A DNA stretch of 64,000 nt, taken from the NCBI RefSeq assembly GCF_013315695.1, contig NZ_CP054353.1; one strand, written 5' to 3'. The position numbers are program-made. Shown piece after piece: positions 54,501-60,500 of the stretch; positions within the stretch are counted from its first letter, which is position 1, and each line of letters opens with the position of its first letter. This DNA is from Escherichia coli. GTDB taxonomy: Bacteria; Pseudomonadota; Gammaproteobacteria; Enterobacterales; Enterobacteriaceae.

Positions 54501-57500
54501 AATATAGAATAACCTGTTCAGATAATAATACTTTATATCCAACTATATAACATATTTTTTGTCATGTTTTTTATAAAACTTTAAATTAATTGCAAAATGG
54601 CATCTGAATCGATCATAGTTTGGCATTCGAATCGATCATGATTTGGCTCTCTTGCTCCGGCTTTATCCACTTCCTCTCAGACGACAGTCAGTGTCCTGCT
54701 CTGACTGAACCTCTGCACCGTTGTTACGTACCCAGCGTTTGTTTTTCTATTAGAGTCACTTCAGTAGGCACATCAGATGCCAACGCAACATTCCCTGCCA
54801 TAAGCGCAGCCAGAACGCCTGCTACAACTAAACTATTCCTGGTGATATTGCTCATTCTCTTTCTCCATTTGTCGAGGATTTGGGCGTTGATTTTCGACGA
54901 GCTCCAGTTGCAACTCCAGTCTTAAGGTTATATCGGGATAGCACACAAGTGTTACACGCATAAACAAAAAACACCCAAAAAGTATTATTCCATAACATTT
55001 ATTCATGGAAGATAACAATGAAACGATTCAGCTATGTTTTTTGAACTAAAAAATACTTTATAAGAACATCCCAATTTTGGAGGCGATACTCATTCTCCCC
55101 CTGATAACTAAACGCTCTCGTCCGACAGGGTGTGGAGACTATCAATATCCACAGTAATGATGCTGACTTTGTTTTCGTTTGAGGAAATGACATGCACGAT
55201 TACCTGCTTTTTTTACTGGGACTTACACCGCTTCTGGCGATGATCATTTTGATTCTGAAAGTCAAAATGCCCATACATTATGCCGTGCTTAGCACTCTCT
55301 TTATCACGCTGATTCTGGGCGGTTTTTTCTGGAACACTCCTGTTCAGGATATGGGGTTTGCTGTTGTATATGGAGCAATCAAAGGTCTGTGGCCAATTGT
55401 GATTGTCATCCTGGCAGCCATTTACAGCTATAACCTGATGAATGCGACAAAAAGCATGGATATTCTGAGAAATGTTCTCGCGAGCGTTAGTGATGACAAA
55501 CGTATCCAGGTACTTCTTATCTTATGGTGTTTTGGTGGATTTCTTGAGGCGGCAGCCGGATACGGTACAGCGGTAGCAATCCCCATTGGTATACTGATTG
55601 CTCTGGGCTTTAACCCACTAAAAGCAGCGATTGCATCACTGGTTGCTAATACAGTCCCTACAGCGTTTGGGGCAGTAGGTATACCTGTCTCTGTACTTGC
55701 TGAACAAGTTAATTTACCTGTAACCACACTCAGCGGGACAATTATTCTTCAACTGGCACTGTTCAACATTCTGCTTCCTTTCGTCATCGTCGCGATTATC
55801 GGTGGTGGTATGAAGACTATACGAGGCGTTGGACTAATTACCCTGATGTGTGGTGTCAGTACATTAATTCCCCAGTATCTGGTGGCTGTTAATCTTGGCG
55901 CGGAACTCCCGGCTTTCGCGGGTAGTCTTGTCAGTCTGATAGTAATAGTCTTTATGGCGAAAAACCGTAAAGAAAAAACCGCCCCTGAATTGGGGATGCG
56001 GACGATTTCCTGGACTGCTTTATTATGCCAGCCCACATTGTTGGCGGTACATTTCAGGGCTGACTGCACCCAGCGATAATTTTATACGCCGCTCGTTATA
56101 CCATCTGATGTAAGCATCTACATGCTGCATGAACTTTTCTGGCGTGATGCCCGACCATTTACGCCCATAATACATTTCCGTTTTCAGTCTGCCGAAAAAA
56201 CCTTCGCATGCGGCATTATCAGGTGAACATCCTTTACGGGACATTGAGCGAATAAGACCTGCTGCATTCACTCTTTCCAGCCAGCCTGGCCAGCGATAAT
56301 GCCCACCTCTGTCACTGTGTATCACCGGTCGTTCGCCAGCATTTAACGTTTCGACAGCGCTATCCAGCATAGTGTTGACCAGCTCAGCATCGGGGCGTGT
56401 ACTGAGAGACCAGCTAATAACTTTTCCATCGAAGCAGTCCACCACCGGTGACAGCCAGACTTTACCTGCAGGGAGTTGGAACTCCGTGATATCTGTCAGC
56501 CATTTCTGATTAGGTTGCTCCGCCTTAAAATCTCTGGCGATAAGGTTATCCGGAGCCGGTCCGATTTCTCCGCAATATGAGCTGTAGCGACGACGACGGT
56601 TACGGCTGACGACAAGCTGTTCCTCCACCATAAGTCTGCGTACAACCTTTTCTGATAGCCGACCCCCCTCATGCCTGAGCATCGCATGCAGGCGACGATA
56701 GCCATAACACTGGTAATTACTGTTAAATATATCTGTCAGCATCGTACGTATCGTGGCGTATTTATCACCGGCTTTCAGTGCAGCCCGGTGATAAAAATAA
56801 CTGCTACGGGTAAGGCCCAGAACATGCAGTAATTCTGTCAGGGGATATGTTTGTCTCAGGGCATCAGCGATCTTTGTTTTTTCTCTGTTGTTCAGGTGAC
56901 TGATACTGATGCCCGGGTCTTTTTTTATGATTTCCTCCGCCTTTTTCAGAATATCCAGCTCCATCTGCCGGCGGCGTATTTCCTGATTCAGTCGGGCGAC
57001 TTCCTCCCGCAACGCATCGCGTTCTGCCTCCAGGGAAGGTTCGTTATGTTTACGCATAGTCTGGTAAGCACTGTTGCCGATAATTTCATCTTTCTATTTA
57101 TACAATACCGCACGACTGACACCAATACGCCTGGCGATCTCACTGGCTGATACTTGTCGTGTACAGAGTGCCATGACAGCCTGACGTTTGACTTCTGGTT
57201 CAAAGGGCGCAACCGGGTTGGCCTTACTGGTAAATATACGTCGTCTGTCGGGATAAAGTTCATTAACCCAGCGAGCGAGTACATCAGTGCAGGGATAACC
57301 CAGGGCTCTGCTGGTAAACGCCAGGCAGCAGCCGTGGTTAAGATAATGTTCAACGGCAACCTGTTTTTGCTCATCGGAGTAACGGTGCTTATGACGAATG
57401 GATTCTTTTGCGCCACCACCTGCTTCCCATGAGCGGATCCAACGCCGCAGATTTCTTTTCGAAGGGTAGCCCAGTTCGCGTACGACGGGAGCCAGCTTCT

Positions 57501-60500
57501 TACCATATTTGAAATAAAGCTCAATGGCGCGGATTTTTTCTTCTTCAGTAAACATGTTTTATCTCCTGAGAGTCCAGGAAATCGTCCGCATCCCCCAACG
57601 AGCTGCTGTTTAAATTCGGGAGGATAATTAGGGCAGCCTTTTCGCCTGCCGGGAGTCACATTTTTCTGCATATCTGACACTTTGGTTCCCACTACTTATT
57701 TGGTGGACACCACTTTGTCTAATTCGTCAGATTCTGACCAGACGGTTCAGGCTGTATGCTTACAGTTGTTCAGGAGTAATAGTCCAAAGTATCGGGAATT
57801 TTCCAGACAATCCTGATAATACGCTTATGAACATTACAACACGCTCATGCGGAACCTGGATGGGGGAAGGAACGGTGAAGCTGTTAGCGAATGACCGGCG
57901 TTTGTATAAACGCCGGTCATGATGAATGATATTTCAGAATATACCTCGGGCTAAAATACCGGGACAGAGATCAGGCATGATTAATCTGCAGCATTTTTAA
58001 TAACAGAAGTACTGAGCTTACTTTACCTTTGATGATGGAATAGTTATTTCCGTCGGTACTCATTTTTCCCTGAAATAATGTCACGGATGTTTCTTCCTGC
58101 TGATCCTGCAGGCGCAGTCGTAAAGTCATATTTTTAATGAGCTGAGATCCGGGTGGCAAGGGGTATTTGCTGTCAGATACTGGGCGACTGAGTCTGATGT
58201 GGCGCGTATACAGCCCGTTTTCGTACAGGGTGGCCTCTGTTATGGTGTCAGTGACCAGCATGTGGGAGACAATGCTGTATTCTTTTTTAAAGCCCCCACC
58301 AGAAACGGTGATTGTAATGATAATGGTCTTCTCGATCGAGATGTAAATACCCGTTTCGTTATACTGTCCGTATCGGAACCATGAGAACTCAGTTGCATTC
58401 CAGCCATGATCCAGAATATGTGCATTTTTTTGCCTGATAGTTTCTTTTTTTATTCGCTCATGTTTAAGGCATAACAGGCAGATAAATAATGTCAGAAAAA
58501 GAAAGCTAATAATGAGAGCAAGAGCGATATAGTCTGTCATAGGGTAATACATATTCTCTCCGGTAGAAGAAGGGCCGCAAACGCGGCCCGGGCTGTTATC
58601 AGAAAGAGTAACGGAAGTTGGCGTTGATCGCGTTATCCACGTTGTATTTACCAAATGCCGATTTCTCAAACTCAAGACCGAAGCGAAGATTATCGCGAAT
58701 TTCGGCGTTGAGACCAACATTCATGAGCATACGACCGTCTTTTTCACCTTTGATACGTTTCTCACCGGACGCATCACGCAGTACGGTTTCACCGTTGGCA
58801 AACAGGTCAAACTGGTAGCCAAGGCCGGCGCGGGCTGTGACTTTCCAGTCCTTACCGGAGAAGGATTTACCCACATCAACACCGGTACGCCCAATCAGCG
58901 GATTAAAGTCCTTATCCTTCATGGTGAGGTTCATTCCCTGGTCCTTCCAGGAGAACTGTTTCCCGGATACAGCACCGTAAACAAGTTCCGCCTGCGGCTC
59001 AATCCATGCAGAGTCAGTTACATGATAACGGTAACCGACTTCCGCACCGGCATACCAGGAGTGGGAGCTGTAGTCTCTGGTGCCAAGGCCGGCGAAAGTT
59101 GCGGTATACTCGTTGTCATGGTGAACGAACTTACCGATGAGGTCGATATATGCTCCGGACTCAAACATGGCAGAGGCATAGAGACCGGCACCCACAGACT
59201 TCGTTTCACCACTGAAGGCATCACTGCCTGCATGGCTGTCGGTATAGGTCATGGTCACCCCGGTGAAGAGGTCAAGGCCATCGAGTTCATGTTTGTTATC
59301 CGCACCGACCTGAACGTGGGTGTAGTTGTCACTGAATCCACCGCCGGCAGACCCGGTTCCGCTCATGATTCGGGCCCATGCACCGGACTCACCGTTAATG
59401 TCACGCAGATCACCCATACGTTTGTTAAGGTTGTTGACCTCAGCAAGGAAGGCTTTATAGCCGCCTGACATCAGTAATGTTGCCTTTTTAGCCGCATCGG
59501 CGTTGGCCACAGATTTATAGCCGATCAGAGTCCATGTTGCTTTGTCTGTATCGTTCTTTTGCTCGATAACCGGTGTTACATCACTGAAGCCAATACTCCG
59601 AGTCGTAGCTTTAAAGACATCTACTGCAGTTCCTTTTGGTGCGCTGACCAGATCGATATTCAGTCCGTTGCTGTTTCCATTTTTCTCAATGAAGTCGACT
59701 AACAGAAGGTTGTTTTTACCAGACAACGATTTATTGACAACAAGCTGATCTGCTTGGGCCAGATTTGCACGCAGCACAAATGCACTGTCATCTATAGTAA
59801 GGTTGTCCACTGTAAGGGTTGTAAACTTCCCATTATCACCAGTAAAACGCACCATACTGTCTTTTGTTTCTAGACGATTAATTGATGACTGGCTATTTAG
59901 ATGCCAGATCGCATTATTCATGCTAACTGTAGCTTTGGGGGCTGTTATTGCGCCTCGATAGGCGGTATCAAAGCCATACAAAAGAGTCTCTGCCCATGCC
60001 TGATAAGCAGACGATATAGTCGGTGTTTCAGTTTCAGGCTGTCCCAGAGTAATGGTTGCTGCATCATCAGCATAAATATTTCCGGTGACAGATGCCATAT
60101 TTCTGGCAATGAAATTTGCATTTCCACCACTCAGCCTGAATCCATCAGCAGCGTAGTGGAGACCCGGCGTTACAGTTTTACTATTCTGTTCAGGGATTCC
60201 CATCATAGTCAGTTCACCGGAGATATCAATACCTTTTGTTGTGAACATGGAATTTTGTGCTATAACTTTTGCTCCTTTATCTATACTTATAGGAGTATTA
60301 TTCAGAAAGGTTGCACCATTAAGTGTAACTACAGCTTGATCACCTATGGCTATTTGGCTGTTATGTGCAGTGATGCCACCTGTAAATTTAGTTTCTCCTA
60401 TGGATAGATTAGTACTGATAGTTTGTTTGAAGTCAAAACCATTATTAGTAATATTTTTCCCTGCAAGATTATCAATGTAAGCATTTTTATCGCCGATTGT

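What the first reader, a model, noticed from the sequence alone, without database searches (positions are those of the whole stretch)
55192..57600. LctP-family lactate permease gene truncated after about 265 codons by an IS3-family element
The permease ORF follows the LctP pattern through the central conserved region and then runs into IS-derived sequence. The IS OrfB itself appears intact (344 aa).
Basis: seen in the sequence. Interest (0 to 1): 0.3.

Follow-up and report, generated by a model that had tools for sequence, protein, structure and literature searches.

The report
IS-truncated lactate permease pseudogene remnant
This is the dead front half of a lactate-transporter gene, cut off by a defective insertion sequence inside a well-known E. 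coli virulence island; it is an ordinary, already annotated piece of gene decay.

Summary
ORF 55192-56079 matches the first half of the LctP lactate permease family (Pfam profile positions 3-258 of 522, E 7.5e-71). Homology to intact 518-aa alleles stops exactly at 55991, which is codon 266 plus 2 nt.

The abutting element is an IS3-family insertion sequence at 55992-57595. It is 1604 bp, on the minus strand, with perfect 25-bp inverted repeats.

- **Not a simple insertion.** The flanks are ATT and CAA, so there is no 3-bp target duplication. The far flank (57596-57763) is a stub of an IS66-family element, not permease. Removing the IS does not restore the frame. The permease 3' half and the downstream lutABC genes are missing from the whole window, so a deletion was involved.
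- **The IS is not intact.** Its transposase is normally one 510-aa ORF. This copy has TGG->TAG at codon 154, and the "344-aa OrfB" is what lies after that stop.

The same joint occurs in 543 of 5426 complete E. coli genomes. RefSeq annotates both genes there as pseudogenes. The setting is the pheV genomic island (pap, iha, sat, iutA). Already known; low interest.

The parts
55192..55991 (+). 5' remnant of an LctP-family L-lactate permease gene: codons 1-266 plus 2 nt of a 518-codon gene. It is a pseudogene.
   Evidence: Pfam Lactate_perm 3-258/522, E 7.5e-71. TIGR00795 lctP 4-264/530. Collinear with intact alleles in L007, L006 and L013 up to 55991. 263/266 aa identical to the intact L013 allele. 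RefSeq: 'L-lactate permease, incomplete, missing C-terminus'.
55992..56079 (+). Tail of the chimeric 295-aa ORF. These 29 codons are read from the reverse strand of the IS and are not permease sequence.
   Evidence: Homology to intact lctP ends at 55991 and homology to other IS copies starts at 55992. ORF list.
55992..57595 (-). IS3-family insertion sequence, 1604 bp, with no target-site duplication at this site.
   Evidence: Ends were defined by aligning four independent copies. Copies L002 and L004 have 3-bp duplications, AAG and ATA. BLAST of other copies covers query positions 3-1606. The window flanks are ATT (55989-55991) and CAA (57596-57598).
55992..56016 (.). Terminal inverted repeat (right end in IS orientation): GGGGATGCGGACGATTTCCTGGACT.
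   Evidence: Inverted-repeat search, sequence. It is a perfect 25/25 complement of 57571-57595.
57571..57595 (.). Terminal inverted repeat (left end in IS orientation).
56023..57555 (-). Transposase gene of 511 codons in one frame, inactivated by TGG->TAG at codon 154 (57094-57096). The 153-aa and 344-aa ORFs are its two pieces.
   Evidence: Alignment and translation against the intact 510-aa copy L003. NCBIfam NF033516 IS3 family transposase, 421 bits for the intact copy. Pfam HTH_Tnp_1, HTH_21, rve, rve_2. RefSeq note 'internal stop'.
57596..57763 (-). 168-bp stub of an IS66-family element: its left terminal repeat and the first codons of tnpA. It forms the other flank of the IS.
   Evidence: 97-99% identical to the ends of thousands of IS66-like copies annotated tnpA. 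Homology to the intact copy L010 starts at 57596.

Best explanation
This is a decayed cargo gene of the pheV genomic island (a pathogenicity island) of extraintestinal pathogenic E. coli.

The ancestral island carried a complete L-lactate utilisation module downstream of iha: lctP (518 aa), then lutA, lutB and lutC. In the lineage of this window, an IS3-family element now sits at lctP codon 266. Everything from there to a point inside an IS66-family element on the sat side has been lost.

The two IS flanks come from different original sites. The most likely route is therefore that two copies of the IS in the same orientation, one in lctP and one in IS66 tnpA, recombined and deleted the DNA between them. 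An IS-mediated adjacent deletion is the alternative. This route is inferred, not shown.

What remains is a promoter-proximal half-gene. It could at most encode a 295-aa chimeric protein with about half of the transmembrane segments, which cannot be a working LctP transporter (inference). The IS has since lost its own transposase to an amber mutation, so it is a fixed fossil.

In most carriers, including Nissle 1917 and ST131, a further 1974-bp deletion removed the 5' part of the remnant as well. That shows continuing stepwise decay.
For: - **Permease identity and breakpoint:**
- **Intact arrangement elsewhere:** iha...lctP-lutA-lutB-lutC is intact in strain VTB96933v and collinear with window 48810-55991. 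The same intact module is in DLI.5a and AHB30. The AHB30 allele differs from the window fragment by 13 nt in 798.
- **Missing genes:** no LctP residues 267-518 and no LutA, LutB or LutC anywhere in the 64-kb window (tblastn; blastn).
- **IS ends and duplication:** 3-bp duplications in two independent copies, against ATT/CAA here.
- **Other flank:** an IS66 stub.
- **Transposase:** amber codon at position 154, against TGG in four other copies.
- **Distribution:** the same joint is in 543 of 5426 genomes. About 36 keep the 5' part. Nissle carries the extra deletion of 53506-55479.
- **Island context:** tRNA-Phe at 16632-16707, iha, sat and iutA, and the published description of GI-pheV (PMC11537424).
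Against: No intermediate was found. Neither reciprocal junction (IS followed by the lctP 3' half, or IS66 interior followed by the IS) exists in 5426 complete E. coli genomes or in 72,556 plasmids. The two-copy recombination route therefore cannot be told apart from a one-step IS-mediated deletion. The sat-linked ancestor that still carried lutABC has not been seen directly: the intact modules found lie next to other DNA on their far side (type I R-M, microcin, stcE). Loss of function of the remnant is inferred from its length, not measured.
Confidence: 0.9

Rival explanations
1. Simple insertion. The IS jumped into an intact lctP, and the 3' half of the gene lies directly beyond the IS.
For: The permease ends exactly at an IS terminus.
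Against: There is no target duplication: ATT versus CAA, while other copies make 3-bp duplications. The sequence beyond the IS is an IS66 stub. Excising the IS gives stop codons after 21 further codons. No LctP C-terminal half is in the window.
Confidence: 0.02
2. One-step IS-mediated adjacent deletion. The IS first inserted into the IS66 tnpA gene near sat. One of its ends then attacked lctP at codon 266 within the same molecule and deleted the DNA between, without a second IS copy.
For: It accounts for the missing duplication and the two unrelated flanks as well as recombination does. No genome with a second copy at either reciprocal site was found.
Against: No IS66-interior|IS junction survives in any genome searched, so the proposed starting insertion is also unseen. 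From general knowledge, IS3-family elements move by a copy-out/paste-in circle, for which adjacent deletions are less typical than for IS1 or IS903. The present copy has a dead transposase, so the event must predate the amber mutation.
Confidence: 0.3
3. The truncated gene is retained because the 295-aa chimeric product, or its transcript, has a new function, rather than being a decaying remnant.
For: The ORF, its start and its upstream region are intact. The fragment differs from an intact allele by only 13 nt, with dN/dS 0.10. The 295-aa product is listed as a protein in public databases (P0001, 120 member sequences).
Against: Most carriers have lost the start codon and first 96 codons in a second deletion, so the 5' part is dispensable. 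The low dN/dS rests on 13 changes and mostly reflects divergence before truncation. Half of an LctP fold has no known independent activity (general knowledge).
Confidence: 0.03

Closest known systems
LctP family lactate permeases (TIGR00795 / Pfam PF02652; E. coli LldP and GlcA)
   Same: The first 266 residues align to the N-terminal half of the family profile. Intact alleles of the same gene (518 aa) pass the TIGR00795 cut-off (409 bits against 341) and sit upstream of lutABC lactate-oxidation genes.
   Different: Only half the protein is encoded here. It is not an orthologue of chromosomal LldP or GlcA: 274 and 245 bits against equivalog cut-offs of 918 and 1121. It is an accessory island-borne paralogue. 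The nearest non-E. coli relatives listed are about 71-74% identical, one of them named from Providencia.
IS3-family insertion sequences
   Same: The intact transposase matches NCBIfam NF033516 end to end (421 bits, cut-off 160). It has HTH, leucine-zipper-like and rve (DDE) domains, terminal inverted repeats and 3-bp target duplications.
   Different: The transposase is a single 510-aa ORF with an extra N-terminal HTH and needs no frameshift. The termini are GGGG...CCCC rather than the usual TG...CA. At 1604 bp it is longer than most family members. The window copy is inactivated by an amber codon. I could not obtain its ISfinder name with these tools.
GI-pheV / PAI-pheV of ExPEC (CFT073, ST131, Nissle 1917 GEI II type)
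   Same: It is inserted at tRNA-Phe with a P4-type integrase and carries pap, iha, sat and iutA/iuc (PMC11537424).
   Different: None that matters. The window is a less-decayed variant that keeps the lctP 5' part, which ST131 and Nissle have lost.

Membership tests
LctP lactate permease family (TIGR00795 / PF02652) | Significant match to the family profile | tested here: met
   PF02652 E 7.5e-71, 239.9 bits, above the cut-off of 27. TIGR00795 E 1.5e-71.
LctP lactate permease family (TIGR00795 / PF02652) | Full-length coverage of the profile (about 520-530 positions), i.e. a complete transporter | tested here: not met
   Only profile positions 3-258/522 and 4-264/530 are covered. The 241.8 bits fall below the TIGR00795 whole-protein cut-off of 341. 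It is a gene fragment. Intact alleles (L013) score 409 bits.
LctP lactate permease family (TIGR00795 / PF02652) | Lactate (or glycolate) transport activity | not testable with these tools
   Substrate is inferred only from the family match and from linkage of intact alleles to lutABC.
IS3 family insertion sequence | DDE (rve) transposase homologous to IS3-family OrfAB | tested here: met
   NF033516 aligns 1-369/369 at 421 bits for the intact copy. rve, rve_2 and HTH_21 are in the window copy.
IS3 family insertion sequence | Terminal inverted repeats and a short (3-5 bp) target duplication | tested here: met
   Perfect 25-bp inverted repeats. 3-bp duplications in copies L002 and L004. The window copy itself lacks a duplication because of rearrangement.
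IS3 family insertion sequence | Two overlapping ORFs joined by a programmed -1 frameshift (typical, not universal) | tested here: not met
   The intact copy L003 has one 510-aa ORF. The A7 run at codon 210 is read through in frame.
IS3 family insertion sequence | Termini 5'-TG...CA-3' (typical) | tested here: not met
   Homology breakpoints and duplications in five copies place the ends at GGGG...CCCC.
IS3 family insertion sequence | Intact transposase, i.e. an autonomous element | tested here: not met
   TGG->TAG at codon 154 in the window copy. RefSeq note 'internal stop'.

The most novel reading that the evidence does not exclude
Loss of the island-borne lctP-lutABC lactate-utilisation module through this IS-linked deletion was not neutral decay. 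Instead it was an adaptive step, fixed in the iha-sat type of GI-pheV carried by successful ExPEC lineages (about 10% of complete E. coli genomes), for example by changing lactate handling in the urinary tract or gut.
Probability: 0.07. Interest if true: 0.35.

Novelty: already known. Interest (0 to 1): 0.08.

Why it matters
It matters little in itself. It is a routine case of IS-associated gene decay inside a heavily studied virulence island, and both pseudogenes are already annotated in RefSeq. Its modest value is as a marker. The exact lctP'-IS-IS66' joint, and the later 1974-bp deletion, are shared derived characters that can order variants of the iha-sat region of GI-pheV. They also show that this region once carried a complete lctP-lutABC lactate-utilisation module.

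Tried and rejected
- **Excising the IS to recover a full-length frame.** This fails. The joined sequence runs into the IS66 stub and stops after 21 further codons.
- **Searching the window for the permease 3' half or lutABC.** blastn and tblastn found nothing significant. The tblastn alignment that seems to reach residue 311 is a gapped over-extension into IS sequence.
- **Searching for evolutionary intermediates with chimeric queries.** The queries were IS end plus lctP 3' sequence, and IS66 interior plus IS end. No record in E. coli complete genomes or PLSDB plasmids covered 80% or more of either query.
- **Testing for relaxed selection in the fragment.** dN/dS against intact alleles is 0.07-0.10, but with only 13 differences to the nearest allele the test has no power.
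- **Mapping the whole window onto strain AF3's annotation by offset.** This failed because of indels. It was corrected by BLAST.
- **Literature search for a description of this remnant.** None was found. Only general GI-pheV papers turned up.
- **Accepting PGAP's 'programmed frameshift' label for other copies of the IS.** Rejected. The frame breaks are at different positions and look like ordinary 1-nt deletions.
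Full report
**Observation**

The region holds an ORF at 55192-56079 (+, 295 aa). Its residues 7-263 match Pfam PF02652 (L-lactate permease) over profile positions 3-258 of 522, with E 7.5e-71. 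They also match NCBIfam TIGR00795 (LctP family) over positions 4-264 of 530. On the minus strand directly after it lie a 344-aa ORF (56023-57057) with HTH_21, rve, rve_2 and rve_3 domains, and a 153-aa ORF (57094-57555) with HTH_Tnp_1.

**Boundaries**

I aligned the window copy of the insertion sequence with four independent copies from other E. coli replicons (L002-L005). Common sequence runs from GGGGATGCGGACG... to ...CGTCCGCATCCCC. Two of the copies are flanked by 3-bp direct repeats, AAG in L002 and ATA in L004.

In window coordinates the element is 55992-57595. It is 1604 bp, lies on the minus strand and has perfect 25-bp terminal inverted repeats at 55992-56016 and 57571-57595.

Homology between the window and three intact permease alleles ends at 55991: the window reads ...CCTGAATT|GGGGATG and the intact gene reads ...CCTGAATT|TCTTATTG. 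The permease is thus cut after codon 266 plus 2 nt. The last 29 codons of the 295-aa ORF are read from the IS.

**Not a simple insertion**

- The three bases on either side of the IS are ATT and CAA, so there is no target duplication.
- The sequence on the far side, 57596-57763, is 97-99% identical to the left end of IS66-family elements. It contains the terminal repeat and the first codons of tnpA, on the minus strand. This sequence is present in thousands of copies in E. coli.
- Alignment with an intact copy (L010) shows IS66 homology starting at 57596.
- Joining 55991 to 57596 in silico gives a frame that stops after 21 further codons.
- tblastn with the intact LctP, LutA, LutB and LutC proteins finds no LctP residues beyond about 266 and no Lut protein anywhere in the 64-kb window.

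**Ancestral state**

In E. coli VTB96933v the DNA from iha to the permease is collinear with window 48810-55991. There the permease is complete (518 aa) and is followed by lutA, lutB and lutC, the L-lactate oxidation genes.

The same intact lctP-lutABC module occurs in strain DLI.5a and in strain AHB30 next to stcE/etp. The AHB30 allele differs from the window fragment by only 13 of 798 nt, or 3 of 266 aa. The intact protein passes the TIGR00795 cut-off (409 against 341 bits). It is far below the equivalog cut-offs for chromosomal LldP and GlcA, so it is an accessory paralogue.

The window lineage has therefore lost permease codons 267-518, lutABC, and whatever lay between them and the IS66 element on the sat side.

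**Mechanism (inferred)**

An IS whose two flanks derive from different target sites and lack a duplication is the expected product of one of two events. One is homologous recombination between two like-oriented copies, here one in lctP and one in IS66 tnpA. The other is an IS-mediated adjacent deletion.

I looked for either reciprocal junction with chimeric queries. None was found in 5426 complete E. coli genomes or in 72,556 plasmids. The two routes cannot be separated with the present data. I favour two-copy recombination, at roughly 60:30, on general grounds.

**State of the IS**

- The 153-aa and 344-aa ORFs are in the same frame. They are separated by one TAG at 57094-57096, where four other copies read TGG.
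- In copy L003 the transposase is a single 510-aa ORF. Its residues 121-504 cover the whole NCBIfam IS3-family transposase model (NF033516, 421 bits against a cut-off of 160), and residues 1-120 add another HTH.
- The window copy is therefore a nonsense mutant. The DDE domain is undamaged but is separated from the N-terminal DNA-binding part.
- RefSeq annotates it as 'IS3 family transposase, internal stop' in strains AF3, Nissle and U15A.
- The element is atypical for its family in three ways: a single ORF, GGGG...CCCC termini and 1.6 kb length. It is still a member by transposase homology and 3-bp duplication.

**Distribution and context**

- The window is the pheV genomic island: tRNA-Phe at 16632-16707, then an integrase, pap genes and iha, followed by this locus, sat and iutA. 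This matches the published description of GI-pheV (PMC11537424).
- The stretch 55480-57800, spanning both IS junctions, is present at 80% coverage or more in 543 of 5426 complete E. coli genomes.
- Only about 36 genomes keep the arrangement with the permease 5' part as in the window.
- Most carriers, including Nissle 1917 and O25b:H4-ST131 strains, have a further deletion of window 53506-55479. It removes the start of the remnant. The locus is a fossil undergoing stepwise erosion, and the amber mutation is shared, so the events are old.

**Comparison with known things and verdict**

This is a fragment of an LctP-family gene, not a functional member, abutted by a defective IS3-family element inside a well-characterised pathogenicity island. 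Both are already annotated as pseudogenes in public records. Nothing here is unexpected for a specialist.

The only mildly useful points are that the iha-sat region once carried a full lactate-utilisation module, and that the joint serves as a lineage marker.

- **Novelty:** already known.
- **Interest:** about 0.08.

Noticed in passing
window 55992-57595; intact copy L003 1541-3073: In its intact form this IS3-family element encodes one 510-aa transposase, with no frameshift needed and an extra N-terminal HTH. An A7 run at codon 210 (window about 56918-56926) sits where IS3 elements usually frameshift. In-frame reading gives the full transposase, and a -1 or +1 slip would give 230-aa or 220-aa OrfA-like products. 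The termini are GGGG...CCCC, not TG...CA.
   Followed up: partly
L002 1542-3073 and L004 1541-3072: RefSeq labels these copies of the same IS as having a 'programmed frameshift'. The frame breaks are 1-nt deletions at two different positions, neither at the A7 run, so they look like ordinary inactivating frameshifts that have been mislabelled.
   Followed up: partly
window 53506-55479: Most carriers of the joint (Nissle 1917, ST131, U15A) lack this 1974-bp stretch. The deletion fuses an IS110-family remnant directly to permease codon 97. The window is the rarer, less-decayed form (about 36 genomes against about 500).
   Followed up: partly
L013 7043-11497; L009 22617-27070: The intact lctP-lutABC module sits in at least three different island contexts, always bordered by IS remnants: after iha, next to stcE/etp, and next to a type I R-M plus microcin H47 cluster. 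Alleles differ by up to about 9% in the 5' 798 nt of lctP (72 of 798 nt between the window fragment and L007). The nearest non-E. coli relatives listed are about 71-74% identical, one of them named from Providencia.
   Followed up: no
window 57971-58720 (-): A 249-aa ORF lies between the IS66 stub and sat (RefSeq annotates a shorter 'hypothetical protein' there). It has no Pfam or NCBIfam match.
   Followed up: no
window 56988-57692 (-): A 234-aa ORF starts at the IS66 tnpA start codon and runs across the IS66/IS3 junction in an alternative frame of the IS. It is a chance chimeric ORF created by the junction.
   Followed up: no
window 33098-38907: The window carries about 5.8 kb more pap-operon DNA than the otherwise near-identical strain AF3, where an IS1 copy replaces it.
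   Followed up: no
window 53089-53995 (-) and about 46200-46450: Further decayed genes lie upstream: a frameshifted IS110-family transposase remnant, a peptide ABC-transporter binding-protein fragment (about 54700-54860) and a fragment annotated 'TOTE conflict system primase domain'.
   Followed up: no
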